Positions 9,124 to 53,951 of a DNA stretch of 58,878 nt are shown here, piece by piece; position 1 is the stretch's first letter; the number at the start of each line of letters is the position of its first letter. The notes below the pieces were generated by a model, which did no database searches, was not told where the DNA came from, and saw nothing but the letters and a program-made list of their open reading frames with translations. Made by a program: the position numbers and the translations under genes. The stretch is from a virus (lineage: Duplodnaviria > Caudoviricetes): positions 1 through 58,878 of the IMG/VR virus record IMGVR_UViG_3300032242_000714; one strand, 5' to 3'.

Positions 9124-10148
9124 CCAAACGCATAGGCTTTGCCTGTAAGTGGATCGATCGTGCAGATCAAGTAGACGGTATTAAATCATCAGATGATTGT
9201 AAACAATTCAACACAGGTAGTACAACTGTCACCTGGCTTAACCGTCAAACCCGTGAAGTAGCAGAACAAAAACTTTGGGACTTAATGGTACAAAACATTG
9301 AGTCAGTTCGTAAACTTATAGAAAGAGTAGGAACCCTAGATGACCATTTACGCATGGTACGTATTGGCAGTGATATACTGCCTGTGTACACTCACGATGA
9401 TTGGATGTATTTCTGGCGCAGGACTGATGTCATTAACTACTGCGAAAAACACTTCCGAGAGGCAGGCGATATTGCTCGGCTACGGAACGTTCGCTTGTCT
9501 TTCCATCCTGGCCAGTTTACTGTCCTGGCATCGGACAATCCAGATATTGTCAACAGAAGTATAATGGAGTTTGAGTATCATGCAGATATGGCCCGTTGGA
9601 TGGGATTTGGTAGACAATTCCAGGACTTCAAGATCAATGTACACATTGCCGGACGTAGAGGCCCCCAAGGTATCCGAGACGTCCTCCCTCGACTCTCTCC
9701 AGAAGCCAGAAACTGTCTTACAATCGAAAACGATGAAATGTCCTGGGGCCTGGACGCCAGCCTTGAGCTTGGTCGAGATGTCGCCTTGGTTTTGGACATA
9801 CACCACCACTGGATCAATACAGGAGAGTATATATCACCACAGGATGATAGATGTTTACGTGTAATTGATAGTTGGCGTGGTGTCAGACCTGTAATACACT
9901 ACTCTGTTAGTAGAGAAGATGTTGTAGTAGGACATGAGTTGGTTACTCGCCCTAATTTGCCTGTATTATTAGAATCTGGCTACAAAAAACAAAAACTGCG
10001 GGCCCATAGTAATTTCTATTGGAACACCGCAGTTAATGAGTGGGCACTTGAGTTCACAGATAATTTTGATATTATGTGTGAATCCAAAGCCAAAAACTTA
10101 GCAAGTTTTGCTCTTGCCAAGCAGGCTAAAGAATTAAATCTTCTTTGA
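9120..10148 (+). CDS. uvsE: UV DNA damage endonuclease (UVDE)
   Basis: RIGFAC, RLSFHPGQFTVL, NVH, IEND, LDIHHH, IHYS, RAHS, MCESKAK motifs. Confidence 0.92.
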   Translation: MTKRIGFACKWIDRADQVDGIKSSDDCKQFNTGSTTVTWLNRQTREVAEQKLWDLMVQNIESVRKLIERVGTLDDHLRMVRIGSDILPVYTHDDWMYFWRRTDVINYCEKHFREAGDIARLRNVRLSFHPGQFTVLASDNPDIVNRSIMEFEYHADMARWMGFGRQFQDFKINVHIAGRRGPQGIRDVLPRLSPEARNCLTIENDEMSWGLDASLELGRDVALVLDIHHHWINTGEYISPQDDRCLRVIDSWRGVRPVIHYSVSREDVVVGHELVTRPNLPVLLESGYKKQKLRAHSNFYWNTAVNEWALEFTDNFDIMCESKAKNLASFALAKQAKELNLL

Positions 10149-22932: not shown

Positions 22933-25900
22933 TTGAGCGCAATAACAAACCTAACACCGCTTAACACCGTAACTGGTGGTATGCTGTTGCCTATTGTAGA
23001 TACTACAGTAGAGCCATATACCACCAAACAGGTCAATATTGACAAGTTAGGGCACTATGTTAACAATGCTTTATTAAGCACAATTATTCCGCCTGCTACA
23101 ACAAGTACCTTAGGAGGTGTTATTGTAGGTGGCGGATTATCAGTTACTACCGCAACTAATACAGGAACCTTATCCCTAATTCCTGCTACTACAACCACAC
23201 TTGGTGGTGTTATTGTTGGGCAAGGACTCACAGTAACTACCAGCGGTGTATTAGTGGCTGTAAGTCAAATTCAGACAACTACTTGGGCAACACTAGCACA
23301 CGTTAATGACGGCCAAGGTCCGCTACAGGTAAACATAGGGCGTAATGCTGGTATATCAGGACAGGGTACATATTCTATAGCAATTGGATATCAGGCAGGT
23401 GAATTTAATCAAGGTATTACTCAAGGTGCTCCCTACGGAAATGCTGTTGCTATTGGTACACAGGCAGGACAAACTAATCAAGGTAATTCATCTGTTGCTA
23501 TAGGTAACAATGCAGGTACCACAAATCAAGCAGTCGATGCTATCGCTATTGGATGCTTTGCTGGTAATACAGGTCAAAACACTATGTCTGTTTCAATCGG
23601 TATTAGTGCAGGGCAATTTAATCAAGGCCGTGAGTCTATAGCAATTGGGCATAATGCAGGTGTTAATCATCAGGCGGCTAATTCCATTGTTTTAAATGCT
23701 ACAGGAATTACACTAGATACAGCACAAACTGGATTTTATGTTGCACCATTAAACATTAACAGTGGTAGTGGATTGATTTTATACTACAACACCACAACCA
23801 AAGAAGTAAGTTATGGAGTTATAAGTACCGCACTTATAGGTGCAACTGGATTTGGAGGTGCAACTGGTGCTACCGGTCTTTATATTACAACTGGTACTAT
23901 TGTTAATGGAACTGATTTACAACTAGTTTTTAATAACGGAAACGTAGCCAACGTTGGTCGTGTCATTGGGCCAATTGGCCCAAAAGGAGATCCAGGTACT
24001 ACAGGTGCTACTGGACCTGCAGGACAATCATTACCCGGGTCTACTGGTGCTACTGGCCCGCAAGGACCTTCGGGACTTGCTACATATCAAGGTGCTACAG
24101 GACCAAATGGTGCTACTGGTGCTACTGGACCTAAAGGTGATCCAGGCGGACCTATAGGATCAACAGGTGCTACTGGACCTCAGGGTATTCCCGGAAGAGG
24201 ATATGCAGGTCCAAAAGGTGATATGGGTACTTCAGGAGCCACCGGATCAACAGGCGCTACTGGATATTCGGGCAGTACTGGAAGTACAGGTTATCAGGGA
24301 GCAACAGGTGCTACTGGACAATATGGTTCAACAGGTGCTACTGGACCACAAGGTGCTATTGGATCAACAGGACCACAAGGTGCTATTGGATCAACAGGAC
24401 CACAAGGTAGCACAGGTGCTACCGGACCACAGGGGGTTATTGGATCAACAGGACCGCAAGGTTCTATAGGTAGCACAGGTGCTACTGGTATGGGTTCTAC
24501 AGGAGCAACTGGTTTAACTGGTGCTACTGGCGCCGCGATGCTCGCTGGCGCATACATATATACTCAATCTACTGCTACTACAACTTGGACCATAACTCAT
24601 AATCTAGGTTATCAATACCTACAAGTTGAGCCAGTTGATTCTAGCAATTATAGTTTTGTTGGTCGTTATGATTATCCATCAATTGATTTTATTGATACTA
24701 GTACACTAACATTAACATTTAGTTCACCACAAACAGGATTTGTAAATGTTAGTTCTGGAGGCGGACCAGTTGGTGCTACTGGTGCTGGGGCTACAGGTGC
24801 GTATGGATCTACCGGTGCAACAGGTTTACAAGGACAATTTGGATCTACCGGTGCAACTGGATTGGGAGGATCAACAGGTGCAACTGGAATAGGAACCACA
24901 GGTGCAACTGGAATAGGAACCACAGGTGCAACTGGATTGGGAGGATCGACAGGTGCAACTGGACAATTAGGTAGCACAGGTGCTACGGGAATTGGATCAA
25001 CAGGAGCCACAGGTGCTACAGGTGCTACTGGACTTAAAGGCTCTACAGGAGCAACTGGTTTAGGTGCTACTGGTGCTACTGGAAACAATGGCGCAACTGG
25101 TTCTACTGGACCACAAGGAGCAACTGGTCCTTCAGGTATTAACGGAGCGGCAGGTTCCCAAGGAGAATTAGGTGCTACTGGTGCAACTGGACCTCAAGGA
25201 GATCCAGGTGGTGCTACTGGCAATGACGGTGCTACAGGTGCGACTGGATTTACAGGGTATGACGGTGCTACCGGAGCCACAGGCCCTGCTGGATCAGGTG
25301 CCACTGGAGCCACAGGTAGTTGGGGGAGTTCAGGTGCTACGGGTGCTACCGGACAAACAGGTGCTACCGGAGCACAGGGAATATCTGGTGTTAAAGGAAC
25401 AACCGGTGCTCAAGGATCTACCGGTGCTACTGGACAGACAGGTGCTACTGGAGTTAGTAATGTACCCGGCGCAACGGGTGCTACTGGTCCTGCTGGTGCG
25501 ACAGGATTACCAGGAACATTTGCTGGTCAAGGCGGAACTGGTGCTACAGGAGTTCCAGGTGCTACTGGACAAACAGGTCCTGCAGGTGCAACTGGCGCAG
25601 GTGCAACTGGTGCCCAAGGATTAAAAGGTACTACTGGTGCCACAGGACCTGCGGGTATTAATGGTACTCAAGGTGCTACAGGTGCTAGTGGATATGTAGG
25701 AATGGACGGTGCTACCGGCGCGACTGGAGCCACTGGACCGCAAGGTGCTACTGGTATTCCGGGTGTTGCCGCTATGCAAGGTGGAACTGGTGCTACGGGA
25801 CCACAAGGTAGTACCGGTGCTCGGGGATCTACTGGTGCAACAGGTCCACAGGGGCAAATTGGTGCTACAGGTGCACAAGGTCAGATCGGTGCTACTGGCT

Positions 25901-26487
25901 CGCAAGGAGCAACTGGAGCAGGTGCTACCGGTTCACAAGGACCTATAGGATTTACAGGTGCATCAGGTTCAATTGGATTCACAGGTGGAACTGGGGCAAC
26001 TGGAGCAGGTGCTACAGGTGCCACTGGCGCACAAGGTGCTACAGGACCTGCAGGTGCAACTGGATTTGGATTAACTGGTGCATCAGGTTCAACTGGTGCT
26101 ACAGGGCCTGCTGGTGCTACAGGCAGTGGTGCTACAGGTGCAACTGGTGCTAGCGGGCCACAAGGTGCAACTGGAAATACAGGAACTGTTACTCTTGTAG
26201 GAAATACATACACTGTACAAACTCTAGTAGTGAGCACGTTGACAGTAGGCACAATAGGATTAGGTTCAATTGTATCTGGTAACGATTTAGCACTTAAAGC
26301 CGCAGGTCAAATTACTACAAATGCTCCATTTGTTTTAACAACTGCTACAACAAGTACATTAGCAACTGTTGCAGGTATAACGCAAAGAGGTGCTATGGTA
26401 TTTGCTTTGGACGCTGTTGGAGTTGCTCAACCTGTTTATTACGATGGAACATATTGGTGGACAATGAATAGAACAAGGATCTATTGA
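22933..26487 (+). CDS. Collagen-like fibre protein 2 with YadA-head-like repeats
   Basis: TTG start after GGAG; N-terminus paralogous to the previous gene (MSAI.NL); [12 protein letters not shown] repeats; (S/A)(I/V)AIG..AG repeats; long G-X-Y runs. Confidence 0.88.
24343..24408 (+). repeat. 27-bp exact tandem repeat (about 2.4 copies) in collagen gene
   Basis: ggaccacaaggtgctattggatcaaca at 24343 and 24370, partial copy at 24397. Confidence 0.85.
24874..24936 (+). repeat. 24-bp exact tandem repeat (about 2.6 copies) in collagen gene
   Basis: acaggtgcaactggaataggaacc at 24874 and 24898, partial copy at 24922. Confidence 0.85.
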
Positions 26488-42543: not shown

Positions 42544-43377
42544 ATGTCAGATCACTACCAAACGTTAGGTGTTGGCAAAAATGCCAGTCCAGATGAAATT
42601 AAACGAGCATATCGCAAGTTAGCGAGCCAGCATCACCCCGACAAGGGCGGAGACACTCAACGGTTCCAAGAAATTCAAGCGGCCTACGAAACACTTAGTG
42701 ATCCTGCCAAACGATCCGAGTACGATAATCCACAACCACAATTCGGTGGAATGAATTTTGGCGGCGGCGGTGTGCCTCCGGGCTTTGAAGATATCTTTGG
42801 ACAAATGTTCGGTAATGGTAATCCATTCTTTGGTGCCGGATTTCAACAAAGACCTCAACATCGAAATAGTAATGTTCAAATGCAGATGAATATTACTTTA
42901 GAAGAAGCGTATCACGGTAAAGAAATTATCACAGATATACAATTGCCCAGCGGTATTAAAACTGTAGAGATTAAAATTCCTGCAGGTATTAACACAGGAC
43001 AGACACTGAGAGTCAGTGGTGCTGGAGAAAGCATTCATAGAGGAATGCCTCCCGGAGATCTACTAATTCAAATCAATGTAATAAATCATCACAGATACAA
43101 CAGACAAGGTGACGACTTATACTCGGATATTCATTTAAGTGTTTGGGAAGCAATGGTGGGAACTGAACGTGACTTTATCTGTATTGATGGAACACAATTA
43201 ACAGTATCAGTACCCCCAGGTATTCAATTTGGACAGGCAATTAGACTTGTGGGGCGAGGTATGCCAATGTTACATCAAAATCACTTCAAAGGAAATCAAT
43301 TCCTTAAAGTGAATATAGAAATCCCAAGAACACTAACAGATCAACAAAAAGATCTTGTTCGCCAATTTATAAATTAA
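42544..43377 (+). CDS. dnaJ: DnaJ-class chaperone (type II, CbpA-like, no Zn finger)
   Basis: J-domain with HPD, G/F-rich linker, C-terminal substrate-binding domains. Confidence 0.92.
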   Translation: MSDHYQTLGVGKNASPDEIKRAYRKLASQHHPDKGGDTQRFQEIQAAYETLSDPAKRSEYDNPQPQFGGMNFGGGGVPPGFEDIFGQMFGNGNPFFGAGFQQRPQHRNSNVQMQMNITLEEAYHGKEIITDIQLPSGIKTVEIKIPAGINTGQTLRVSGAGESIHRGMPPGDLLIQINVINHHRYNRQGDDLYSDIHLSVWEAMVGTERDFICIDGTQLTVSVPPGIQFGQAIRLVGRGMPMLHQNHFKGNQFLKVNIEIPRTLTDQQKDLVRQFIN

Positions 43378-43388
43378 ATATTACAACT

Positions 43389-43892
43389 ATGCTAAAACTT
43401 GTAACATTCCCCAATACAATTCTCGCGGAGCGTATGCCGGATTTTGATTTTGAAAATCCTATCATGGATCCAAAAGAATTAGAAAAACAAATGATCGAAT
43501 TTATGTTTGCCAACAACGGTTTAGGCCTTGCCGCCAATCAAATCGGCATTCGTGCTCGTGTGTTTACCATGGGGCACAGCCAAGATCCAGATTCGGCACA
43601 GGCATTCTTTAACCCAATCATTGAAAACATTTCAGAAGAACTGTATGATGTGGAAGAAGGATGTTTGAGTTTCCCCGGAATTTTTGTTAAAATAAAACGT
43701 CCCAGAAAGATTCAGGTCACTTATCAAACTTCATCAGAAGAAACTAAAACTGAAATATTAGAAGACTACAATGCCAAATGCTTCTTACACAAGTATGATC
43801 ATTTAGAAGGCATTACATATAAAGACAGAACCAGCACCCTTAGATGGGCAATGGCAATTAAAAAATCAAAACCAAAGAGGAAGTTTAAGTAA
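43389..43892 (+). CDS. def: Peptide deformylase with catalytic HExxH altered to HKYDH
   Basis: GLGLAANQ, EEGCLS and HKYDHLEG motifs. Confidence 0.85.
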   Translation: MLKLVTFPNTILAERMPDFDFENPIMDPKELEKQMIEFMFANNGLGLAANQIGIRARVFTMGHSQDPDSAQAFFNPIIENISEELYDVEEGCLSFPGIFVKIKRPRKIQVTYQTSSEETKTEILEDYNAKCFLHKYDHLEGITYKDRTSTLRWAMAIKKSKPKRKFK

Positions 43893-46166
43893 ATGTTAGA
43901 ACCAAATAGTGATCTCGAAGCCATGTTTGAACGTGCGGTTAGTGTAGCAACTAAACAACAGCACGAGTATATTACATTAGAGCATTTTTTATACAGCATG
44001 GTATTGGACCAGAAGTTTAGCGAATTGCTAAAAAACTTTGGTGCCGAAGTAGATCAATTAAAAAAGAACCTTGAAAAGTTCATTGAAGTTGATTTGGTTG
44101 ATATCAAAACTAACAATCCTAATCAAAAGCCTAAGAAAACAAACACAGTCGAGCGTATGTTGAATCGTGCGTTTACACAGGTACTGTTCAGTGGTCGTTC
44201 TACAATTGAACCAATTGACTGCTTTATCAGTTTGTTCTCAGAAAAGAAAAGTTTTGCCAACTTCTTCATGCGTAAGGCCAAGATTGACAAAGATAAGTTT
44301 ATTGAATATGTAAACAATGAAGTAGTTCAAGAAGGACAAGAAGTCGGTGATGCCAGCAACAACCAACTTGAGCGTATGTTGGTTCAGTACTGCGCTAACT
44401 TGAATAATAAGGTTAAACAGAAGAAAGTAGATCCTGTTATTGGACGTGAAAAAGAAATTGAGGACATGCAACTGATCCTTGCTCGTCGTCAAAAGGCTAA
44501 TGTAATGTTGATCGGTGATCCTGGCGTCGGGAAGACTGCCATAGCCGAAGGCTTAGCCAAGAAGATTGTAGAAGGTAATGTTCCTAAGTTTATTCAGGAT
44601 CATACTGTCTACAGTTTAGATATCAGTGCTATGTTAGCAGGCTCTAAATACCGAGGTGACTTTGAAGAGCGTCTAAAGATGGTATTGGCCGCACTTGAGA
44701 AAAAAGGTAAGTGTATTCTATTCATTGACGAGGCACACATGATGAGCGGTGCTGGTGCTGTCAGTGGTGGAAGTAATGACATGGCCAATATGTTGAAGCC
44801 AGCATTGGGCAAAGGTGTATTAAAAGTTATTGCTTCAACTACATGGGAAGAATTCCGTAAACACTTTGAAAAGGATCGTGCTCTAATGCGCAGGTTCCAA
44901 CGTGTTACAGTCGACGAGCCTTCAGAAGCATTGGCTATCAAGATCATCAAAGGTCTTAAAAAGTATTACGAAAAACATCACGGTGTTAAGATCACTAACC
45001 AAGCGGTTATTGATTCAGTAAAGTATTCTATCAAGTATATGACAGACAAGAAGTTGCCCGATAAGGCAATTGACTTACTTGACTGTGCCTGTGCCCGCTT
45101 TAAGATCAAAGATGTAGAAGGTGGCATTGTTGATCACGATGAGATTGTATTTGAAGTTAGCAAGGCCGCAAACTTGCCAGTAGAACGCATTGCGGCCAAA
45201 GAAGATCGCAACTTAAAAGACCTCGACAAGAACATGCGTGGTAAGGTCTTTGGACAAGAGTCAGCAATTGAGATTTTGTTAGACAAGATTTATATTGCTC
45301 AAGCAGGACTAAAATCACTGAATCGTCCTGTAGGTAACTTCTTGTTTGTCGGCCCAACTGGTGTTGGTAAGACTGAAACTGCTAAAGTATTAGCATCAAG
45401 TCTTGGTGTACAACTTGTACGTTTTGACATGAGTGAATTCCAAGAGCAACATTCAGTGGCTAAATTCATCGGTGCTCCTCCCGGATATGTTGGCTTTGAA
45501 GACAACGCAGGACAACTTATTACTAAGTTACAAGAGCATCCAAATGCTGTAATACTGTTTGACGAGATTGAAAAGGCACATCCAAGCGTAGCAAATGTCC
45601 TGTTAGGTCTAATGGATAATGGATTCGTAACAGGATCGAACGGTAAAGTAGCAGATGGTCGCAACGCAATCATCATCATGACTTCGAATCTCGGAGCCGC
45701 TGATGCTGAAAAGAACGCCGTGGGCTTTGGTAGTTTAGAACGTGGCGATGAAAGCAATGATGCTATCAACAGTTTCTTCAAACCAGAATTCCGCAATCGT
45801 TTAGATGGCATTATCAAGTTTGGCAAGTTAGATCATAACACAATGGCCAAGATTGTTAAGAAGTTTATTGACGAATTGAATGGTTTGTTGAAAGACAAAC
45901 ATGTTGCTATCAAACTTACAGCAGATGCCGCAGAACTATTGATCAAGAAAGGATTTAATCGTAAAATGGGTGCTCGCCCATTGGCACGTACAATCGACGA
46001 AATGATCAAGAAACCTTTGAGTAAGGAAATCTTATTTGGTAATCTTACCAACGGTGGAATCGTAGAAGTAGGTTGCGATAAAGATAAAATTGTGTTAAAC
46101 TATGTTGAAGTTCTACCTATTGTAGAACCCGTCAAAGTGGACACAGATGAAGTACCTTCTAACTGA
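43893..46166 (+). CDS. clpA: ATP-dependent Clp protease ATP-binding subunit ClpA
   Basis: Clp N-domain HEYITLEH, two AAA+ modules (GDPGVGKT, GPTGVGKT), GYVG pore loop, VGF ClpP-docking loop, no ClpB middle domain. Confidence 0.93.
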   Translation: MLEPNSDLEAMFERAVSVATKQQHEYITLEHFLYSMVLDQKFSELLKNFGAEVDQLKKNLEKFIEVDLVDIKTNNPNQKPKKTNTVERMLNRAFTQVLFSGRSTIEPIDCFISLFSEKKSFANFFMRKAKIDKDKFIEYVNNEVVQEGQEVGDASNNQLERMLVQYCANLNNKVKQKKVDPVIGREKEIEDMQLILARRQKANVMLIGDPGVGKTAIAEGLAKKIVEGNVPKFIQDHTVYSLDISAMLAGSKYRGDFEERLKMVLAALEKKGKCILFIDEAHMMSGAGAVSGGSNDMANMLKPALGKGVLKVIASTTWEEFRKHFEKDRALMRRFQRVTVDEPSEALAIKIIKGLKKYYEKHHGVKITNQAVIDSVKYSIKYMTDKKLPDKAIDLLDCACARFKIKDVEGGIVDHDEIVFEVSKAANLPVERIAAKEDRNLKDLDKNMRGKVFGQESAIEILLDKIYIAQAGLKSLNRPVGNFLFVGPTGVGKTETAKVLASSLGVQLVRFDMSEFQEQHSVAKFIGAPPGYVGFEDNAGQLITKLQEHPNAVILFDEIEKAHPSVANVLLGLMDNGFVTGSNGKVADGRNAIIIMTSNLGAADAEKNAVGFGSLERGDESNDAINSFFKPEFRNRLDGIIKFGKLDHNTMAKIVKKFIDELNGLLKDKHVAIKLTADAAELLIKKGFNRKMGARPLARTIDEMIKKPLSKEILFGNLTNGGIVEVGCDKDKIVLNYVEVLPIVEPVKVDTDEVPSN

Positions 46167-47374: not shown

Positions 47375-47749
47375 ATGCTATTAAACGAATTTTTTGGTTC
47401 TTATGACGCCGCTGGCGCTAAGAAGGAAGATGAAAAACATAAAAAGAAATATGAAGAAGCCGAGTTGGCTGACGCAATTTATGAATTCATTCTTCACAAC
47501 GACAAACTCCACAAAGAGCAGTTTATTCCTATTGCTCAGAAAATACACCGCAACCCCACAAAAGAACACGATAACGAAATTTGGATGCCACTAGTAACCA
47601 AAGGCTGTATGGAATTCTACCATCACAACAAGATGATGGAAGATCCACTAAAGATGTTTCATAAAAAATTCCGCAGTGATCTTTGCGAACTATTTGCCAC
47701 AGAGTGTAATAAAGACATTCTCAAGGGCGAATTTGAGTTAGGGGATTAA
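47375..47749 (+). CDS. Putative head-internal protein
   Basis: N-terminus MLLNEFF; TAAATA at 47339. Confidence 0.6.
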   Translation: MLLNEFFGSYDAAGAKKEDEKHKKKYEEAELADAIYEFILHNDKLHKEQFIPIAQKIHRNPTKEHDNEIWMPLVTKGCMEFYHHNKMMEDPLKMFHKKFRSDLCELFATECNKDILKGEFELGD

Positions 47750-47750
47750 T

Positions 47751-48737
47751 GTGTTTCTAAATGAACTATTCAACAACACAAAAACTCCTCTAAATGAAGG
47801 TGGTAATGTATTTGCAGGTAAGACCACTGCTATCAAGCGTGAAGATATTCCTTCAACACTAAACGCTTACTTTGCTGAACTGAAAAGTATGTTCCCAAAG
47901 AAGGCCGCAATCTTTAATGAAAAGAATTTTATGCCACTTGGCTCTGTTGGTAAAAAAGCAGTCAGTGGAGATATTGATTTAGGTGTTAGTGCCACAGACA
48001 TTCTTGATAAAACAATGAGCGATGCAAGTATTGCGGCTTGGGGAGTTGATCCTAAAGCAGTAGCCGCAGAGTTTGAAGCACTAAAGAAACGTGCTCGTAC
48101 AAGTACTCCAGAACAACTAAGAATGAAAGCATTCTTAAAACATCTAACACTATACATCAATAGCCATGCTCCGAGTCTATACACTGATGAAAAGAAAGTC
48201 ACAGACGGCAACATCTTTGGATTATTTCCACAAATAGACGCACAAGGACAACATGTAGGCAGTGGTGTTCAAATTGATTGGATGATTGGTGATCTAAATT
48301 GGTTAAAGTTCAGTTATTACTCTGCGGCTTACCCAGAAGGCAGTAATGTCAAAGGACTTCACAGAACACAATTGATGCTAAGTGCTTTCCAAGTAGCAGG
48401 TCTAAGTTTCAATCACGTCGGTGGTGTTAAAGACAAAGAGACTGGAGAAGTCATTGCTCGCGATCCAGACCAAGCATTAGGTGTGTTAGGTCAAAGACTA
48501 GGATTTAAGATCACACAAGCAGATGCAGAAGACTATTATAAACTTCACAAACTATTCCAAACAAAGATGAGTCCAGAGAATTACAACTCGCTAATCAACA
48601 TTTACTTTAAGATCTTGGACAGCACTCGTGCTGACATTCCAGATGATCTACAAGGCGAATGGCGTAAGCGTCAGGGAAGTCTTGGACTAACAGGTAAGTT
48701 CCTACCTGACAATTCAGCATTAAAGGCGAGACAATAA
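47751..48737 (+). CDS. Pol-beta/PolX-superfamily nucleotidyltransferase, putatively head-packaged
   Basis: GTG start MFLNELF...LNEGGN; LGSVGKKAVSGDIDL and VQIDWM give the GS..DxD..D triad. Confidence 0.7.
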   Translation: MFLNELFNNTKTPLNEGGNVFAGKTTAIKREDIPSTLNAYFAELKSMFPKKAAIFNEKNFMPLGSVGKKAVSGDIDLGVSATDILDKTMSDASIAAWGVDPKAVAAEFEALKKRARTSTPEQLRMKAFLKHLTLYINSHAPSLYTDEKKVTDGNIFGLFPQIDAQGQHVGSGVQIDWMIGDLNWLKFSYYSAAYPEGSNVKGLHRTQLMLSAFQVAGLSFNHVGGVKDKETGEVIARDPDQALGVLGQRLGFKITQADAEDYYKLHKLFQTKMSPENYNSLINIYFKILDSTRADIPDDLQGEWRKRQGSLGLTGKFLPDNSALKARQ

Positions 48738-51661
48738 TGAGTGGCGTAGCAGGTGCCGATCGTGTAAAAAGTCGTCAAGACTTTCAACAGTTCTTAAAAT
48801 CTTACAAAAGTCTGATCAGTCAGTTCCCTGGATTTGTAAGTTTAAATCCCAGCGGTAGTTATAACAGCAATCTTGAGAAGAATGACTTTGGTGATATAGA
48901 TCTTATTGTTCATATCCAAAGCGATCAAGACAAAGCCACAGTTAAAAAACAACTACAGGCATTCTTTATGAAACAGCCTGAAACAGTTATTGTTCCTTTC
49001 AGTTCTGCCAAACACGCAGGTAAGCGTAGTTATAATGCAGGCGAATTGGTCAGTGTTCGGTATCACGATGATCATTTAGGTTATTCAGCACAGATTGACA
49101 ACATAGTAGCATTAGATCAAAAGGAAGCAGGATTTAAACAACAATTCTTAGATTGGCCTGCAGAAAAGCAAGGCTTAATTTTAGGTTTAATTAAAATTGC
49201 CGCAATTGAAACTGATCCAAGAATTCTGTTTAAGAAATTAGGCATACCTGATCCAGGTCCTCTTGAAGAAGGTCAGGAATATGAATTTAATCTTAGTTCA
49301 GTAGAACTACAGTTAAGAAGAATTACCTACAAGCCAGGTACCTACGAACAATTAGGCAGAGAAGTCCTTTGGAATAGTAGAGACTTTGAAGACATACAAA
49401 AGTTATTGTATCAATATAACTTAAACGCAGACTTTGACCAACTATTAGCACAGGCTAAACAGGTAATAAAGAATCCACGTAGTAATGCAAGGATGCAGGG
49501 TGTGTTCTCAAGTATGATCACAGTCAAAAGCGGAGAAGTAGGTACAGCCAAAGGTGCTGGCAAAGAAGCCGCATTGGCCAAAATACAAAATACATTTAGA
49601 GAATCACGTAGCCTACTACATGCTCTAACAGAATCTGCCAATCCAGGAACAATCGTATTTGCGTTTGGAAGACTACAGCCTCCTACAATTGGACATGAAC
49701 TACTTGTCAATACTGTTAAACAGGTAGCAAAACAAAATGGTTGTCCTTACATTATCTATATCAGCAAAACAGTTGGCAAGAGTCCGGCAGATAAATTAAA
49801 GAATCCTCTCACTGTAGATCAAAAGATGATGTACTTAGGAAAAATGTTCCCAGGTACACACTTTGCTCCGGCTACTGATCAAGTTCGTACTCCTATTGAA
49901 GCCGCTAAATTTCTAAATCAAAAGTATCAAAATCTTATTCTTGTAGCAGGCGGTAGCCGTGCTGAAGAATTTGATAAACTATTAAATGACTACAATGGCA
50001 GAGATTATAATTTTGATAGCATTCGTGTTGTTAAGATTGATAGAGACCCAGACGCAGATGATGCTTCGGGTATGAGCGGAACTAAAATGCGTCAAGCGGC
50101 CATGGCTGATGACTTTGAAGCATTTAGATCAGGACTGCCAGGAGCATTAGATGATGCTACAGCACAACAACTTATGCAGGATGTGAAAGCCGGTATGACT
50201 CCAACACCTAAAATTAAAAAAACAAAAGAAGCAATGTTACCTACAAGTGCGTTTGCAGGATCTAAGAAAAACAAATTAGGGCCAGCAGGACAGTGGAAGA
50301 ACACAGGACCAAGTAAGAATCGTCCAGCCAAGGCAGGCGACTTAGTAGGCGGTGCCGCTGAAAGCGTAGAACAGAAGAAACCAGAAGAGAAAAAGAAATC
50401 GTGGGATGATTATGGCCTACCACGAGGTACAGGTAAAACAGAACCCAAAGAAAAAGTCTATCGCGGTTGGAATGATTACGAATATTCAAAGAAAAAAGAA
50501 AAAGAAGTAGCAGAATCTAACGATGTAAAAGGCACATTAAGAACAATTGCTAATGATATCGGCGAGCCTGTTACCAATGTATACGAAACACTAAAACATA
50601 TGGCCAAACGTTTCTATGATAGTCACGGAGACTTAAAAGGTTTTGGCATGGTCGCAGGCGGTGTAGGAGGTCGTTGGTTCCAGACATTCTATTTTAATAG
50701 ATTACAAAATGAACTATTTGATTTAACCAGACAGAGTCCAAAACATACAGTACCTTTACAACAGTTTTTACGAGGTGTAGAAGTCAAAGGCAAAATTGAA
50801 AATGCCAAAGGTTTTAGTACTATCAGTAAAGAACTTCCAGATATACTTGCTGATATAGGTACTAAAATAGGATATCCACCGTTGGCTCACAATGCTCGTC
50901 GTTGGATGCAGAACAGAGAAGATTACGAACAGTACCTAAGTGATTTAGAATTAAGTGATTATGAAGACGACGATGACTTTGATTCTGTACCCAAAACTCC
51001 TAAAGATCCAGAGATGGGCAAACAGCGTAGTCAAGCAGAAGACATTGTCAACGATGTTTTAAGAAAATTACCAAGCAGAATTGCTGGCGATATTCGTAAT
51101 GCTATTGCTCGTGCGCCAAACAAACTACAGGCTTTACAACAAGAACTACAAAAACGTGGTGTCAAGGTTCCTATGGAAAACATGGCTGGTGTAGGTGATA
51201 TGGATAATCCAGAATTAAACGCTGTGTATGAAGCCAAAGCCACAAAAACAAGACTTGATCCAAGTTGTTGGAAAGGCTATCATAAAGCAGGTACCAAAGT
51301 CAAAGGTGGTACAAGAGTCAATAATTGTGTGCCCAATGAAGCCGCTAATCCTGCGCAACAGGCCGCTATTGCTATTGCTAAAAAGAAAAAGCGAGGCACA
51401 ACAGAAGCAGACGATATAGAACATGGATACCCTATGATGGCTACAGAACACAAGAAGGGTGTTAAGGCTGTGAAGTATACCAAGAAACCTAAAGGTATTG
51501 AACCACCGAAACCCAGAAATTTTGTTGCCAAAAACGCAGTAATGGGAGGTGCTGGTGCTCATAAGAATAAGAAAAAAGAAGCAAAGCATAAACATGTAGA
51601 GATCGGTGAGGCTTGGGAACGAGAAATGGCTCGTGCTATTAGACTTTTGGAAAATAAATAA
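48737..51661 (+). CDS. Multidomain polyprotein: Pol-beta/PolX-type nucleotidyltransferase, HIGH-type cytidylyltransferase-like domain, and short Glu-delimited modules
   Basis: SGSY...FGDIDL...AQIDNI; FAFGRLQPPTIGH...KNPL...GMSGTKMR; repeated xxE(S/A/N) junctions. Confidence 0.72.
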   Translation: MSGVAGADRVKSRQDFQQFLKSYKSLISQFPGFVSLNPSGSYNSNLEKNDFGDIDLIVHIQSDQDKATVKKQLQAFFMKQPETVIVPFSSAKHAGKRSYNAGELVSVRYHDDHLGYSAQIDNIVALDQKEAGFKQQFLDWPAEKQGLILGLIKIAAIETDPRILFKKLGIPDPGPLEEGQEYEFNLSSVELQLRRITYKPGTYEQLGREVLWNSRDFEDIQKLLYQYNLNADFDQLLAQAKQVIKNPRSNARMQGVFSSMITVKSGEVGTAKGAGKEAALAKIQNTFRESRSLLHALTESANPGTIVFAFGRLQPPTIGHELLVNTVKQVAKQNGCPYIIYISKTVGKSPADKLKNPLTVDQKMMYLGKMFPGTHFAPATDQVRTPIEAAKFLNQKYQNLILVAGGSRAEEFDKLLNDYNGRDYNFDSIRVVKIDRDPDADDASGMSGTKMRQAAMADDFEAFRSGLPGALDDATAQQLMQDVKAGMTPTPKIKKTKEAMLPTSAFAGSKKNKLGPAGQWKNTGPSKNRPAKAGDLVGGAAESVEQKKPEEKKKSWDDYGLPRGTGKTEPKEKVYRGWNDYEYSKKKEKEVAESNDVKGTLRTIANDIGEPVTNVYETLKHMAKRFYDSHGDLKGFGMVAGGVGGRWFQTFYFNRLQNELFDLTRQSPKHTVPLQQFLRGVEVKGKIENAKGFSTISKELPDILADIGTKIGYPPLAHNARRWMQNREDYEQYLSDLELSDYEDDDDFDSVPKTPKDPEMGKQRSQAEDIVNDVLRKLPSRIAGDIRNAIARAPNKLQALQQELQKRGVKVPMENMAGVGDMDNPELNAVYEAKATKTRLDPSCWKGYHKAGTKVKGGTRVNNCVPNEAANPAQQAAIAIAKKKKRGTTEADDIEHGYPMMATEHKKGVKAVKYTKKPKGIEPPKPRNFVAKNAVMGGAGAHKNKKKEAKHKHVEIGEAWEREMARAIRLLENK

Positions 51662-52545: not shown

Positions 52546-52917
52546 ATGAGAGCAAAAGAATTCATAGTCGAAACTAAACCAGAAGGCAAGATGCACCCAC
52601 ATCACGCGAATGTAGGACAAGGCGTATCAAGATCACGTGATGTAGGCGGATATGATCGTGTGTATCACATGAATCGACTAATGATGGCTATGGGAATGGC
52701 AGACGGTAAAAGTGAAAAACCTGTAGAGATGGATTCTGCATCATGGACAGAAAAATACAATACACATCATCCATATACAGAAGAAGAACATACCATGATC
52801 AAGTCTGCATTGAACACAATTCCTACAGACAGTAAAGAAATTACTCCTTGGTCAAAGAGTATTGAACCAGATGATACACATAAAGTAAGTCCTGTTGCAA
52901 ATTGGATGAAGAAATGA
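52546..52917 (+). CDS. Putative head-internal protein
   Basis: N-terminus MRAKEFIVE resembles the T4 internal-protein capsid-targeting sequence MKTYQEFIAE. Confidence 0.65.
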   Translation: MRAKEFIVETKPEGKMHPHHANVGQGVSRSRDVGGYDRVYHMNRLMMAMGMADGKSEKPVEMDSASWTEKYNTHHPYTEEEHTMIKSALNTIPTDSKEITPWSKSIEPDDTHKVSPVANWMKK

Positions 52918-53909
52918 GAGCATCTGAAATTATTATCAAAACCAAACGTAAAAGTTCTGCTGTAAAACTACAGAGTGCTTGGGAAAAGCAACAGGCTAAA
53001 TCTACTGCCAGTCGCAAGCGTGGCGAAGAATATATGGCCAAGATCAAACAAGATATTGCTAAGAAAAATCAAGGTGTGGAAGAAGCATTTCCTAATCAAC
53101 AAATGTCACTATATAATCCAAATGGAAAAACATATAGAACCGACAAGAAAATGCCAACATTAGATCCAAATGATCCAGTACATAACGCTGATCGTTATGG
53201 ACAAGAACACGACGAGCCTTACCAACAAGATTTTAATCGTGAAGAAATAAAAAGATTAGTTAAACAACATTTAGACGAACTTAATGATCGTCAAAAGCAA
53301 GTCTTAAAACTGATGTATTGGGAAGAAATGACCCTCGAAGAAATAGCAGTCGAACTAAAGGTTACTCGAGAGCGTGTTCGTCAAATATGGGCCAGAGCCA
53401 TGCGAATGTTAAGACAGAATATGAAATCTAAAAACTATGACTTTGATATGTCAGAAGATTGGCAAAAGGTCAATAGACACGATAAGACAGACGGTCTAAG
53501 CAAAAAGGCTGTTAGTGCTTATCGTAGAGAGCACCCCGGTTCAAAATTAAAAACTGCTGTCACAACCAAACCTTCAAAATTAAAGAAAGGTTCTAAGTCT
53601 GCTAAACGCAGAGCAAGTTTTTGTGCTCGTATGAGCGGTATGAAAAAACACCGAACTGGTGCTAAAACAAAACGTGATCCAGATAGCAATATTAATAAAG
53701 CACTTCGCCGTTGGCATTGTGAAAGTATCGAAGAGATGCAGGAACTAATTATGATTGGAGAACAATATATCTCCCAATTACGAGAGTCAGCAACTGGCGG
53801 TGCTACTTCATCTGGTTCAGTTGCAAGCGTGGCAATGCCCTTAGGCGGCAAAAAGAAAAAGAAAGGCGGCGGAGTAAACTTACTCGGCGGACCTGTATTC
53901 AAACGCTAA
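52914..53909 (+). CDS. Putative head-internal polyprotein with sigma-70 region-4 HTH domain
   Basis: LDELNDRQKQVLKLMYWEEMTLEEIAVELKVTRERVRQIWARAMRMLR is a classic sigma R4; then a basic RRASFCARM..ALRRW.C module. Confidence 0.75.
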   Translation: MRASEIIIKTKRKSSAVKLQSAWEKQQAKSTASRKRGEEYMAKIKQDIAKKNQGVEEAFPNQQMSLYNPNGKTYRTDKKMPTLDPNDPVHNADRYGQEHDEPYQQDFNREEIKRLVKQHLDELNDRQKQVLKLMYWEEMTLEEIAVELKVTRERVRQIWARAMRMLRQNMKSKNYDFDMSEDWQKVNRHDKTDGLSKKAVSAYRREHPGSKLKTAVTTKPSKLKKGSKSAKRRASFCARMSGMKKHRTGAKTKRDPDSNINKALRRWHCESIEEMQELIMIGEQYISQLRESATGGATSSGSVASVAMPLGGKKKKKGGGVNLLGGPVFKR

Positions 53910-53921
53910 TTTGTCCAGAGA

Positions 53922-53951
53922 CTTGACTTCCGCAGTCAAGCAACGTATAAT
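53922..53951 (+). promoter_or_regulatory. sigma70 promoter whose -35 is one arm of an inverted repeat
   Basis: TTGACT(53923)-17-TATAAT(53946); cttgact-tccgc-agtcaag palindrome. Confidence 0.78.

What the first reader, a model, noticed from the sequence alone, without database searches (positions are those of the whole stretch)
47751..50210. Three nucleotidyltransferase domains in tandem: two PolX/Pol-beta-type and one HIGH-type
Seen: the translationally coupled ORFs 47751 and 48737 each have a complete GS-x(7-10)-DID...QID catalytic pattern yet are otherwise divergent. The second is fused, via LTES, to a HIGH-family domain (FGRLQPPTIGH...SGTKMR). Neither shows an obvious PolX lyase/HhH or PHP domain. 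Known: this fold includes CD-NTases, CCA/poly(A) enzymes, MenT-type tRNA-modifying toxins and protein AMPylases; HIGH-type folds include NMN and phosphopantetheine adenylyltransferases. Inference: this is an uncharacterised paired-NTase system, probably virion-delivered. It might repair cleaved tRNA/DNA ends, make decoy signalling nucleotides, modify host proteins or replenish NAD+.
Basis: partly seen in the sequence, partly recalled or inferred. Interest (0 to 1): 0.78.

Follow-up and report, generated by a model that had tools for sequence, protein, structure and literature searches.

The report
Paired PolX-like enzymes plus adenylyltransferase
A large freshwater phage carries two back-to-back genes for stripped-down relatives of repair DNA polymerase beta, the second fused to an NMN-adenylyltransferase-like enzyme; this trio recurs in many uncultured phages, has no name or tested function, and probably works on DNA ends or gaps.

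Summary
ORF1 (47751-48737, 328 aa) and ORF2 (48737-51661, 974 aa; the finding's end at 50210 cuts it short) overlap in TAATG. Each has a GS...DxD...QID triad that is invariant in 60 and 50 relatives.

AlphaFold models (pLDDT 94 and 85.5) match family X DNA polymerases best, over palm plus thumb: Z 9.1 and 11.7, and ASFV PolX aligns almost end to end. ORF2 residues 303-490 match NadM-type NMN adenylyltransferases (Z 12.8).

In 76 of 81 related loci the ORF2 N-domain directly follows ORF1. The other 5 loci end at the contig edge. In 13 loci the two are one ORF. The HIGH domain is fused in three different orders among distant relatives.

Neighbours are DNA polymerase, ligase, helicase, UvdE and ribonucleotide reductase genes.

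Two complete relatives carry a separate NMNAT-Nudix gene as well as Nampt. The fused HIGH domain is therefore probably not the phage's main NAD enzyme.

Best reading, at moderate confidence: a heteromeric, minimal PolX-like enzyme of the replication/repair module that works on nucleic-acid 3' ends, with an accessory adenylyltransferase. Nothing supports virion delivery. The family is viral, large, absent from Pfam, and not found in print.

The parts
47375..47749 (+). Upstream 124-aa ORF. It is conserved with the pair only in the window's own clade and is sometimes called as one protein with ORF1.
   Evidence: tblastn finds it in 22 of 81 loci. ORF1 relatives of 440-450 aa and locus ORFs of 442-445 aa include it. 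No Pfam or PHROG hit.
47751..48737 (+). ORF1, PolX-like nucleotidyltransferase A (palm plus thumb, an inserted helical segment around aa 81-140, and a C-terminal helical part around aa 265-328).
   Evidence: Model pLDDT 94.1. VIA top 9 are all family X polymerases, Z 7.3-9.1 over 161-185 aligned residues. 1668 relatives. No Pfam or PHROG family.
47940..47978 (+). ORF1 GS-x8-DID motif (G64-D76), the metal and triphosphate site.
   Evidence: G64, S65, D74, D76 invariant and K68, S72 at least 90% conserved in 60 sequences. Coordinates.
48267..48278 (+). ORF1 VQID, holding the third carboxylate D176.
   Evidence: Q174 and D176 invariant. Coordinates.
48351..48374 (+). ORF1 KGLHRTQL, a nearly invariant helix start in the thumb-like part.
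   Evidence: K201-L208 all at least 90% conserved. Helix 202-215 in the model.
48735..48739 (+). TAATG stop/start overlap between ORF1 and ORF2.
   Evidence: In 63 loci with separate ORFs the median gap is -1 base, and 59 of 63 gaps lie between -4 and +2.
48737..49621 (+). ORF2 N-domain (aa 1-295), PolX-like nucleotidyltransferase B.
   Evidence: VIA: TdT Z 11.7 (176 aligned), Pol beta catalytic domain Z 11.6 (183 aligned), ASFV PolX Z 10.7 (163 of 176 aligned). Weak PF14792 hit at aa 16-76, 12.6 bits. The 43%-identical relative P0257 reaches 25.7 bits against a cut-off of 25.
48854..48901 (+). ORF2 GS-x11-DID motif (G40-D55).
   Evidence: G40, K48, G52, D53, D55 invariant in 50 sequences. Coordinates.
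49088..49099 (+). ORF2 AQID, holding the third carboxylate D121.
   Evidence: Q119, D121, N122 invariant.
49622..50221 (+). ORF2 HIGH-type nucleotidyltransferase domain (aa 296-495), with TIGH (within 49667-49696) and SGTKMR (50075-50092).
   Evidence: PHROG 3041 'cytidyltransferase' E 3.8e-57 and PHROG 395 E 5.8e-37. VIA: NadM NMNAT 2qjt Z 12.8, 1f9a Z 12.6, PPAT Z 11.4. PF01467 reaches only 15.5 bits against a cut-off of 21.
50222..51661 (+). ORF2 C-terminal tail (aa 496-974): basic, lysine-rich and variable. It is not part of the conserved core.
   Evidence: pI 9.5, 13% Lys. Relatives are 562-1408 aa long. pLDDT is below 50 from aa 493. No Pfam hit. Only short PHROG hits of unknown function at aa 834-879. 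A DNA run carries a form with 148 bases replaced by 13.

Best explanation
ORF1 and the N-domain of ORF2 are two anciently diverged, catalytically intact nucleotidyltransferases. Their fold is that of the palm plus thumb of family X DNA polymerases. They are minimal, like ASFV PolX, with no 8-kDa lyase, HhH fingers or PHP domain. They are made together through a TAATG coupling and most likely act as one heteromeric enzyme: in other phages they are a single polypeptide. Inferred mechanism: each subunit uses its Asp triad and two metals to add nucleotides from (d)NTPs to a 3'-OH of nucleic acid. The most likely task is filling gaps or processing ends in phage DNA, within the replication/repair module. 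For example, it could act after incision by the phage's UvdE endonuclease and before sealing by the phage ligase. The fused HIGH domain is an active-looking NadM/PPAT-like adenylyl (or cytidylyl) transferase. It transfers NMP from NTP to a phosphate-bearing acceptor. The acceptor is unknown, but the domain is functionally tied to the pair, not merely adjacent. The long basic tail is a variable appendage that may bind nucleic acid. Shown here: folds, conserved catalytic residues, obligate pairing, fusions and gene context. Inferred: physical heteromer, nucleic-acid substrate, DNA repair role and the HIGH domain's acceptor.
For: Fold, ORF1: model pLDDT 94.1. All 50 Foldseek PDB rows shown are Pol beta or Pol mu (E from 2.3e-5). 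The VIA top 9 are all family X polymerases (Z 7.3-9.1, 161-185 aligned). Other NTases follow at Z up to 6.6 over about 100 residues.
Fold, ORF2 N-domain: TdT Z 11.7, Pol beta Z 11.6, ASFV PolX Z 10.7 with 163 of its 176 residues aligned. TUTase, PAP and CD-NTase hits reach Z up to 9.6 over about 105 residues. Foldseek's best matches for the N-domain are Tth PolX, Pol lambda, Pol mu and Pol beta.
Other fold and profile support: BFVD's nearest annotated viral models are giant-virus PolX and ASFV O174L. Atlas structural neighbours include PolX clusters. PF14792 exceeds its cut-off in relative P0257.
Catalytic residues are invariant.
Pairing: ORF2-N follows ORF1 in 76 of 81 loci, and the other 5 end at the contig edge. 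13 loci have one fused ORF. The median gap is -1 base.
HIGH linkage: among 36 long 50%-identity representatives, HIGH-ORF1-ORF2N occurs 6 times, HIGH-ORF1 5, ORF1-HIGH 5 and ORF1-ORF2N-HIGH once. In the loci, HIGH is fused to ORF2N in 21, lies within 1 kb downstream in 10 and elsewhere in the locus in 14.
Context: DNA polymerase in 36 loci, ATP-dependent ligase in 20, DnaB-like helicase in 18, RNR small/large subunit in 14/13, a weak PD-(D/E)XK match in 12, UvdE in 11. The window itself has UvdE and a clamp-loader-like AAA+ ATPase. In phage immuto the pair follows primase and exonuclease genes.
Precedent: passages of preprint 10.1101/2025.03.26.645540 report gap-filling and AP-endonuclease activity for phage YerA41 PolX working with the phage ligase.
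Expression hint: contigs from three lake RNA libraries cover parts of ORF1, the junction, ORF2-N and HIGH at 95-99% identity. This is weak, because DNA carry-over is not excluded.
Against: No activity has been tested. By sequence, the window's proteins fail the Pfam PolX models. PF14792 scores 12.6 bits against a cut-off of 25. PF14791 (thumb) gives no hit in the pair in 5 related genomes. Only 3 of 50 relatives hit PF14792 at E<=0.01. A1 profile and single-sequence searches of PDB sequences find no polymerase. VIA Z scores of 9-12 are only moderately above the tool's stated background of 7-8. Foldseek TM scores are low, 0.33-0.38. A Pol-beta-like fold also occurs in enzymes that act on RNA, proteins or small molecules. 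A repair polymerase does not obviously need two catalytic subunits or a HIGH-type transferase. Many of these phages already have a replicative polymerase and a ligase. Neighbourhood in a replication module is generic evidence. The loci were not de-duplicated, and some are near-identical. Both proteins are only mildly basic (pI 8.5-8.7).
Confidence: 0.42

Rival explanations
1. RNA-end enzyme. The pair tails or repairs RNA or tRNA 3' ends in two successive steps, as the split CC- and A-adding enzymes do. The HIGH domain, which shares its fold with class I aminoacyl-tRNA synthetases and with TmcAL, acts on the same RNA.
For: TUTases, poly(A) polymerases and TRAMP match the ORF2 N-domain core at Z 9.2-9.6. 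The HIGH domain also matches TmcAL (Z 10.1, 186 aligned) and ArgRS/TyrRS (Z 9.2-9.4). PF16581 hits 6 of 50 relatives. RNA-library contigs cover the genes. The split CCA-enzyme precedent is recalled, not tested here.
Against: PolX hits cover about 60-70 more residues (the thumb) and score higher for both proteins. No tRNA gene lies in the window. The neighbours are DNA replication and repair genes.
Confidence: 0.15
2. Small-molecule nucleotide synthase for host takeover or counter-defence. The HIGH domain makes a pyrophosphate-linked dinucleotide (NAD-like or ApnA-like). The two NTase sites extend or cyclise nucleotides into a signal, decoy or cofactor.
For: There are three nucleotidyl-transfer active sites in one module, fused in several orders. 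CD-NTases and OAS share the core fold (Z 4.2-4.7 for ORF1, 8.6-8.8 for ORF2-N). These phages invest in NAD metabolism (Nampt in 3 of 3 near-complete relatives).
Against: CD-NTase and OAS matches cover only the core and rank below PolX. No defence or anti-defence gene was recognised beside the pair.
Confidence: 0.13
3. The HIGH domain is simply the phage's NMN adenylyltransferase for NAD+ salvage (NARP2-like, working with Nampt). Its fusion to the PolX-like pair has no mechanistic meaning.
For: The best structural matches are NadM-type NMNATs (Z 12.8, 12.6). Some sources name relatives NMNAT or NaMNAT. Nampt-family genes are present in 3 of 3 near-complete relatives. NARP2 (nicotinamide converted into NAD+ via nicotinamide mononucleotide) is described in the abstract of PMC13464706.
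Against: Complete relatives G002 and G004 carry a separate NMNAT+NUDIX ORF, in G004 2.5 kb from Nampt. The PolX-linked HIGH domain is therefore an extra copy. It is fused to ORF1 or ORF2N in three different orders, which is hard to explain by chance adjacency. PPAT, NaMNAT and FAD synthetase match within about 1-2.5 Z units, so the acceptor is not determined. The same HIGH family occurs without the pair in 565 phage records, mostly cyanophages.
Confidence: 0.12
4. Phosphotransfer from a nucleotide-activated donor. The HIGH domain makes a CDP- or ADP-activated alcohol or sugar phosphate. The two Pol-beta-fold proteins then transfer that group in succession onto DNA or a glycan, following the logic of ISPD with FKTN and FKRP, or of LicD (recalled).
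For: One HIGH 'cytidylyltransferase-like' domain is combined with two successive Pol-beta-fold enzymes. Sugar-nucleotide epimerase genes lie in the window and in 10 loci. Passages of preprint 10.1101/2023.04.13.536721 show that immuto DNA is fully modified.
Against: No LicD or FKRP-type structure appears among the 50 VIA rows shown for either model. That absence does not exclude the idea. The PolX thumb points to nucleic-acid 3' ends. No link to the known deazaguanine genes was found.
Confidence: 0.06
5. The proteins are packaged in the virion and injected with the DNA. This could hold for any of the activities above.
For: ORF1 and four neighbouring ORFs begin with a similar short motif, M..(K/N/D)(E/Q)(F/L/I)(F/I). 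From memory, this resembles capsid-targeting peptides of T4 internal proteins. That is a recalled lead and was not tested.
Against: The genes are not in the structural block. Most distant ORF1 relatives start at MGGNVF without this extension. ORF2 lacks the motif.
Confidence: 0.05

Closest known systems
ASFV DNA polymerase X (pO174L), the minimal family X polymerase
   Same: It consists of palm plus thumb only, with no 8-kDa lyase or fingers domain, and has the GS...DxD...D triad. 165 and 163 of its 176 residues align to ORF1 and ORF2-N (Z 8.9 and 10.7). It also appears in the BFVD search.
   Different: There is no detectable sequence similarity. The phage proteins have extra helical segments, always come as two divergent copies, and are often joined to a HIGH transferase. 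DNA polymerase activity is untested here.
Phage-encoded PolX of YerA41/SP15-like phages
   Same: It is a phage family X polymerase working in gap repair with the phage ligase (passages of preprint 10.1101/2025.03.26.645540).
   Different: That enzyme is a single gene that its authors identified as DNA polymerase X. tblastn of 50,697 phage records with three ORF1-family queries finds only the four immuto records.
NadM-type NMN adenylyltransferases, and the phage 'cytidyltransferase' families PHROG 3041 and 395
   Same: Same fold (Z 12.6-12.8), a TxGH motif in place of HxGH, an SxTxxR motif, and a strong PHROG match. The family is widespread in cyanomyoviruses, pelagiphage HTVC008M and jumbo coliphages.
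   Different: Here it is fused to a PolX-like domain. It falls below the Pfam PF01467 cut-off. The acceptor is unknown. Relatives carry a separate canonical NMNAT-Nudix gene. In syn9 and HTVC008M the family has no PolX-like neighbour.
Giant-virus PolX fused to an NAD-dependent ligase domain (Atlas cluster)
   Same: A viral PolX module joined in one protein to a second nucleotidyl-transfer enzyme of DNA repair (row 10).
   Different: The partner there is a ligase adenylation domain, not a HIGH transferase. That PolX has fingers, palm and thumb Pfam domains.
Phage NAD+ reconstitution pathways NARP1-3
   Same: All involve phage-encoded adenylyltransferase chemistry around NAD+ (abstract of PMC13464706; listing of 10.1101/2024.02.11.579819).
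   Different: As the abstract of PMC13464706 describes them, none includes a Pol-beta-fold protein. The Nampt and NMNAT-Nudix genes of this phage group lie elsewhere in the genome.

Membership tests
Family X DNA polymerases | Pol-beta-type palm with hG[GS]...DxD and a third acidic residue on a later strand | tested here: met
   ORF1: G64, S65, D74, D76, D176. ORF2: G40, S41, D53, D55, D121. The glycines and aspartates of both triads and ORF1's S65 are invariant across 60 and 50 relatives; ORF2's S41 is at least 90% conserved.
Family X DNA polymerases | PolX thumb subdomain directly after the palm (fold level) | tested here: met
   Family X chains align over 161-185 residues, against about 100 for other NTases, and rank first. 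ORF1 Z 7.3-9.1. ORF2-N Z 10.3-11.7. The Z values are moderate.
Family X DNA polymerases | Sequence-profile membership: Pfam DNA_pol_B_palm (PF14792) at its gathering score | tested here: not met
   ORF2 aa 16-76 scores 12.6 bits against a cut-off of 25. Pfam scans of ORF1 and ORF2 found nothing. Relative P0257 scores 25.7 bits. 3 of 50 relatives hit at E<=0.01.
Family X DNA polymerases | Pfam DNA_pol_B_thumb (PF14791) | tested here: not met
   No match within the pair in 5 related phage genomes at E<=1. The three weak matches lie elsewhere.
Family X DNA polymerases | 8-kDa dRP-lyase and HhH fingers domains, or a PHP domain (present in most members, absent in ASFV PolX) | tested here: not met
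   No such Pfam hit. The models begin essentially at the palm. VIA ranges start at Pol beta residue ~102 (ORF1) or ~142-145.
Family X DNA polymerases | Template-directed DNA synthesis or gap filling | not testable with these tools
   Needs a primer-extension assay.
HIGH-signature nucleotidyltransferases (PF01467) / NMNAT | (H/T)xGH motif after the first strand, and an ISxTxxR-like motif | tested here: met
   GRLQPPTIGH (aa 311-320) and SGTKMR (aa 447-452). Equivalent motifs occur in relatives.
HIGH-signature nucleotidyltransferases (PF01467) / NMNAT | Rossmann-like fold of NMNAT/PPAT | tested here: met
   2qjt Z 12.8, 1f9a Z 12.6 (152 aligned, rmsd 3.2), PPAT 4nah Z 11.4.
HIGH-signature nucleotidyltransferases (PF01467) / NMNAT | Pfam PF01467 at its gathering score | tested here: not met
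   15.5 bits against a cut-off of 21 for the window's domain. 31 of 50 relatives hit at E<=0.01. PHROG 3041 E 3.8e-57.
HIGH-signature nucleotidyltransferases (PF01467) / NMNAT | NMN (or NaMN) as the acceptor | not testable with these tools
   NMNAT, NaMNAT, PPAT and FAD synthetase all match within about 2.5 Z units. A separate NMNAT-Nudix gene exists in 2 of 3 near-complete relatives.
NARP2-type NAD+ salvage (Nampt plus NMNAT) | The adenylyltransferase is the partner of a Nampt gene | tested here: not met
   A Nampt-family gene is present in 3 of 5 related records searched, which are the 3 that are at least 90% complete. It lies far from the pair. In G004 it sits 2.5 kb from a different NMNAT-Nudix ORF. 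The window, estimated at 17% of the genome, was not searched for Nampt.
CD-NTases (cGAS/DncV-like) | CD-NTase fold including its C-terminal helical lobe | tested here: inconclusive
   CdnC, CdnG, CdnE, DwCdnB and OAS match at Z 4.2-4.7 (ORF1) and 8.6-8.8 (ORF2-N), over 97-113 residues of the core only.
MenT / DUF1814 NTase toxins | MenT-like fold | tested here: inconclusive
   MenT1 8an4 matches ORF1 at Z 4.8 over 91 aligned residues. It is not in the rows shown for ORF2.

The most novel reading that the evidence does not exclude
The three active sites form one self-contained DNA end- or nick-processing machine with a chemistry not yet described. The HIGH domain would adenylylate a 5'-phosphate of DNA directly, giving AppDNA, because a 5'-phosphate is the kind of acceptor HIGH enzymes use. 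One PolX-like subunit would fill the gap from dNTPs. The other would use the activated 5' end as its 'incoming nucleotide', so that the 3'-OH attacks and AMP leaves. That would seal or cap DNA without a lysine-adenylate ligase. This would explain why two divergent catalytic PolX-like subunits are obligatory. It would also explain why a HIGH adenylyltransferase is fused to them in several orders, and why some ORF1 relatives instead carry a C-terminal domain with ligase-like motifs. That last resemblance is unverified.
Probability: 0.05. Interest if true: 0.9.

Novelty: new variant of a known kind. Interest (0 to 1): 0.62.

Why it matters
The family is large: 1668 clusters at 90% identity and 305 representatives at 50% identity, from Atlas clusters labelled 92-100% viral. 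It has no Pfam or PHROG family and no name beyond 'hypothetical protein'. It now has a confident fold assignment to the repair-polymerase family X.

An obligate pair of two catalytic minimal PolX-like proteins, repeatedly fused to a HIGH adenylyltransferase, is an arrangement I did not find in print. If it is a DNA repair enzyme, it adds a new polymerase type to the replication/repair toolkit of large aquatic phages, next to UvdE and ligase. It would also be a compact, possibly useful enzyme.

If the HIGH domain feeds or caps the polymerase substrate, the chemistry would be new. The same HIGH family is a long-unexplained 'cytidyltransferase' gene widespread in marine cyanophages, so a function found here may carry over to them.

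A cultured system exists for testing: Flavobacterium phage immuto, genes 181 and 182.

Tried and rejected
- Complex prediction of ORF1 with ORF2 aa 1-295 gave no support (score 0.01 against a mark of 0.32).
- Sequence searches of PDB chains found no polymerase or NTase. This covers single sequences and the A1 profile.
- blastn of the region against phage records found no match.
- My first two profile comparisons of ORF1 with ORF2-N were invalid. Alignments A2 and A3 turned out to contain ORF1+ORF2N fusion proteins. I redid the comparison with stand-alone sequences. The global mode gave nonsense and the local mode gave the result used. Because of those fusions, the HIGH part of the alignment used for the ORF2 model is shallower than 50 rows.
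- The extra C-terminal domain fused to ORF1 in P0248 and P0280 (stand-alone in P0392 and others; alignment A4) has motifs that look like ligase motifs I, III, IV and V. It has no PDB hit by sequence or profile. hhalign against the phages' ATP-dependent ligase gave probability 0.6%. It remains a lead only.
- HMM searches found no PolX-like genes beside the 'cytidyltransferase' genes of syn9 and HTVC008M.
- The promoter and terminator scan was not above shuffled expectation.
- RNA-library contigs did not cover the ORF2 tail. This is no evidence of absence.
- LicD/FKRP-type and RelA-type structures were not among the VIA rows shown. They are not excluded.
Whether the family occurs in bacteria or prophages is untested, apart from Atlas cluster labels of 92-100% viruses.
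- Literature searches that returned nothing relevant: searches gave 0 papers. The listings yielded only the YerA41 PolX work, and the passages searched in the immuto preprints (found) do not mention these genes. Supplementary files were not seen and could hold annotations of immuto genes 181/182.

Full report
WHAT IS THERE

The region holds two same-strand genes. ORF1 runs 47751-48737 (GTG start, 328 aa). ORF2 runs 48737-51661 (974 aa). ORF1's TAA stop shares a base with ORF2's ATG (TAATG). The finding's end coordinate, 50210, cuts ORF2 short. After the HIGH domain come about 480 more residues that are basic (pI 9.5), 13% lysine, and predicted disordered from residue 493.

- ORF1: G64-S65, 8 residues, D74-I-D76, then Q174-I-D176.
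- ORF2: G40-S41, 11 residues, D53-I-D55, then Q119-I-D121.
- ORF2 also has LTES at 297-300, GRLQPPTIGH at 311-320 and SGTKMR at 447-452.

They are not chance. In 60 ORF1 relatives of 28-80% identity, G64, S65, D74, D76, Q174, D176 and P297 are invariant, and KGLHRTQL (201-208) is nearly so. In 50 ORF2-N relatives, G40, K48, G52, D53, D55, Q119, D121 and N122 are among the invariant columns.

The two proteins are barely alike in sequence. BLASTP gives E 0.25. A profile-profile comparison of stand-alone members gives probability 14.5% and E 0.0019, but the GS, DID and QID motifs fall in register.

WHAT STANDARD ANNOTATION SAYS

Pfam gives nothing for either protein at E<=0.1. PHROGs gives nothing for ORF1 or the ORF2 N-domain. 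ORF2 residues 288-495 hit the 'cytidyltransferase' families PHROG 3041 (E 3.8e-57) and PHROG 395 (E 5.8e-37). Scanned alone, the HIGH region reaches only 15.5 bits on PF01467 against a cut-off of 21. NCBIfam adds nothing. PDB sequence searches find nothing.

FOLDS

The ORF1 model is confident (pLDDT 94.1, pTM 0.88).
- All 50 Foldseek PDB rows shown are DNA polymerase beta or mu (E from 2.3e-5; TM 0.33-0.38).
- In the Foldseek-independent VIA search, the top nine chains are all family X polymerases: Pol beta 4rpx Z 9.1 (179 aligned), ASFV PolX 5hr9 Z 8.9 (165 aligned of 176), then Leishmania Pol beta, Pol lambda, TdT, Tth PolX and Pol mu.
- There is then a step down to Mg662 (Z 6.6) and to TUTases, CD-NTases, OAS and MenT1 (Z 4-6). 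Those align only about 90-117 residues of the core.

The ORF2(1-520) model has pLDDT 85.5.
- Its N-domain matches TdT (Z 11.7, 176 aligned, rmsd 3.3), the Pol beta catalytic domain (Z 11.6), Pol lambda (Z 11.0) and ASFV PolX (Z 10.7, 163 of 176).
- TUTase, PAP and CD-NTase cores score at most 9.6 over about 105 residues.
- Foldseek's best matches over the N-domain are Tth PolX, Pol lambda, Pol mu and Pol beta; one NaMNAT chain (rank 35) also appears among the rows shown.
- Residues 303-490 match NadM-type NMN adenylyltransferases (2qjt Z 12.8; 1f9a Z 12.6, 152 aligned, rmsd 3.2). Close behind are PPAT (11.4), NaMNAT (11.2), FAD synthetase (10.3) and TmcAL (10.1).

Three further results point the same way.
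- BFVD's nearest annotated viral models for ORF1 are giant-virus PolX proteins and ASFV O174L. An Agrobacterium phage Atu_ph07 protein also matches.
- The ESM Atlas returns clusters labelled 92-100% viral, almost all 'hypothetical'. Its structural neighbours include PolX clusters and a giant-virus PolX fused to an NAD-ligase domain.
- By sequence profile the link to PolX is marginal. PF14792 hits ORF2 aa 16-76 at 12.6 bits. It reaches 25.7 bits (cut-off 25) in the 43%-identical relative P0257 and hits 3 of 50 relatives at E<=0.01. PF14791 does not hit the pair.

I therefore say the proteins fold like, and probably descend from, the PolX palm-thumb module. I do not file them as family X members.

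THE PAIR IS OBLIGATE AND THE HIGH DOMAIN IS LINKED

ORF1 has 1668 relatives in the 90% database, none with a Pfam domain or a name beyond 'hypothetical protein'. It has 305 representatives at 50% identity. ORF2-N has 803 relatives among proteins of 535-1705 aa, with total lengths of 562-1408 aa among the 120 listed.

A scan of IMG/VR gave 347 confirmed places, of which 80 were fetched. Adding the immuto locus gives 81 loci. They are not de-duplicated, and L002 is the same or a near-identical virus. In these loci:
- An ORF2-N homologue follows ORF1 in 76. The other five end 0-446 bases after ORF1.
- In 13 loci the two are a single ORF of about 612-633 aa.
- In the 63 loci with separate ORFs the median gap is -1 base, and 59 gaps lie between -4 and +2.
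- A HIGH domain is fused to ORF2-N in 21 loci, is a separate ORF within 1 kb downstream in 10, lies elsewhere in the locus in 14, and is not found in 29. Two more loci are truncated.

Among 36 long representatives at 50% identity, the domain orders are HIGH-ORF1-ORF2N (6), HIGH-ORF1 (5), ORF1-HIGH (5), ORF1-ORF2N (5) and ORF1-ORF2N-HIGH (1). Fusion in three different orders argues for a functional tie between the HIGH domain and the pair, not mere adjacency.

Among 50,697 deposited phage records, tblastn with three ORF1-family queries finds only the four Flavobacterium phage immuto records. There, gene 181 (45% identical) is followed by gene 182 (42% identical, annotated NMNAT).

CONTEXT

The record is an IMG/VR fragment estimated at 17% of a genome. 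Near-complete relatives are 353-360 kb. Near-identical DNA occurs in lake and freshwater metagenomes from several studies.

In the window the pair lies after an endolysin, DnaJ, peptide deformylase and a ClpA-like ATPase. It lies before a sigma-70-region-4/DUF6321 protein and the DNA polymerase. UvdE (9120-10148), a clamp-loader-like AAA+ ATPase and PhoH lie further upstream.

Across the loci, the recurrent neighbours within 10 kb are:
- DNA polymerase: 36 loci
- ATP-dependent DNA ligase: 20
- DnaB-like helicase: 18
- RNR small and large subunits: 14 and 13
- ferritin-like protein: 14
- a cluster with a weak, sub-threshold PD-(D/E)XK match: 12
- UvdE: 11

In immuto the upstream neighbours are primase and exonuclease, and a 5'-nucleotidase follows. 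The pair therefore belongs to the replication, repair and nucleotide-metabolism module, not the structural module. No tRNA gene lies in the window.

IS THE HIGH DOMAIN THE PHAGE'S NMNAT?

All three near-complete relatives searched carry a Nampt-family gene. Two of them, G002 and G004, also carry a separate ORF with CTP_transf_like plus NUDIX domains. In G004 that ORF lies 2.5 kb from Nampt. [quoted passage not shown] The bifunctional NMNAT-Nudix form of that route is recalled from memory, not read here.

The PolX-linked HIGH domain is thus an additional paralogue. The same HIGH family occurs alone in 565 phage records, mostly T4-like cyanophages annotated 'cytitidyltransferase'. There it has no PolX-like neighbour. 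Its acceptor cannot be read from the fold.

MECHANISM

Shown: two Pol-beta-type active sites with complete, invariant triads; a PolX-like thumb on each; co-translation or fusion; a HIGH-type active site with both signature motifs; and a replication/repair neighbourhood.

Inferred: the two subunits form one enzyme that adds nucleotides to nucleic-acid 3'-OH ends, most likely filling gaps or processing ends in phage DNA. There is precedent in ASFV PolX. Phage YerA41 PolX also fills gaps and cuts AP sites together with the phage ligase (passages of preprint 10.1101/2025.03.26.645540). UV-exposed aquatic phages that carry UvdE and a ligase plausibly need such a polymerase.

I put this at about 0.4. 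The broader claim that the pair acts on nucleic-acid 3' ends (DNA or RNA) I put at about 0.6. The structural identity I put at about 0.9.

What the HIGH domain adds is unexplained. It could supply a dinucleotide cofactor or act on a 5'-phosphate.

The rivals are an RNA-end enzyme, a small-molecule nucleotide synthase, a plain NAD+ salvage enzyme, CDP/ADP-donor phosphotransfer, and virion delivery. Each is listed with its evidence in the rival explanations. Contigs from three lake RNA libraries cover parts of ORF1, the junction, ORF2-N and HIGH at 95-99% identity. This is a weak hint of expression, because DNA carry-over is not excluded.

KNOWN OR NEW

Searches of the held literature found no description of these genes or of a PolX-HIGH arrangement. 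Searches returned 0 papers. The listings showed nothing on such genes beyond the YerA41 work; one search served only to find the immuto papers. In the papers that mention phage immuto, the passages I searched concern its deazaguanine DNA modification and a divergent PolA. The PolA paper has no occurrence of 'PolX' or 'family X', and its only 'nucleotidyltransferase' refers to PolC's fold.

I rate this a new variant of a known kind. The folds and chemistries are familiar. What is undescribed is the family itself, the obligate two-subunit form and the link to a HIGH transferase.

LIMITS

- No biochemistry was done.
- Z scores are moderate.
- Complex prediction gave no verdict.
- Loci are redundant.
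- Cellular genomes could not be scanned.

Noticed in passing
window 9120-10148 (+): A UvdE-family UV-damage endonuclease gene (PF03851, E 7.5e-39; PHROG 8420 'endonuclease'). UvdE also lies about 3 kb upstream of the pair in 11 related loci.
   Followed up: partly
window 47375, 47751, 51666, 52546, 52914 (N-termini of five neighbouring + strand ORFs): Five adjacent ORFs start with a similar short motif: MLLNEFF, VFLNELF, MKIDQLFE, MRAKEFIVE and MRASEIII. From memory it resembles capsid-targeting or propeptide signals of T4 internal proteins. Most distant ORF1 relatives lack the extension. Its meaning is unknown.
   Followed up: no
window 50222-51661 (ORF2 tail); relatives P0123-P0242: The ORF2 C-terminal tail is hypervariable. 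Relatives are 562-1408 aa, and some tails carry sigma-70 region 4 or DUF6321, like the downstream gene at 52902-53909. One lake DNA run holds a form with 148 bases (50365-50512) replaced by 13 letters. A CWKGYHKAG-type motif at aa 844-852 hits small PHROGs of unknown function.
   Followed up: partly
proteins P0248, P0280, P0392 and others (alignment A4): Some ORF1 relatives carry, in place of ORF2-N, a ~320-aa domain that also exists on its own. Its invariant motifs (TEKLAGQ, YxFExI, NRPDY, EG[LI][FY], FKIP) look like ligase/capping-enzyme motifs I, III, IV and V. Profile tests did not support this.
   Followed up: partly
L085-L090 (related complete phage genomes G002, G003, G004): The 353-360 kb relatives encode a Nampt-family protein. 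Two also encode an NMNAT+NUDIX protein, which looks like a NARP2-type NAD+ salvage set. G003 has an NAD-dependent ligase and a HIGH+GNAT protein.
   Followed up: partly
window 42544-46166 (+): A run of proteostasis genes: full-length DnaJ (42544-43377), peptide deformylase (43389-43892) and a 757-aa ClpA/ClpB-like double-AAA ATPase (43893-46166). This run recurs upstream of the pair in about 20 loci.
   Followed up: no
window 20710-26487 (+): Two large collagen-like or repeat-rich tail-fibre genes. They coincide with a local GC rise to 0.45-0.52, against about 0.39 elsewhere.
   Followed up: no
window 53923-53951 (+): The best sigma-70-like promoter match in the scanned 12 kb (11 of 12: TTGACT, 17 bases, TATAAT). 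It lies just upstream of the 89-aa ORF at 53972 that precedes the DNA polymerase. The overall site count was not above the shuffled controls.
   Followed up: no
L083 (Synechococcus phage syn9, NC_008296.2 149735-152474): syn9 has two adjacent genes annotated 'cytidyltransferase' (gp184 at 382 aa, gp185 at 529 aa), about 3 kb downstream of the gp41 helicase and MazG genes. The window's HIGH domain matches within gp184; gp185 was not compared. The function of this cyanophage gene is still unexplained.
   Followed up: no
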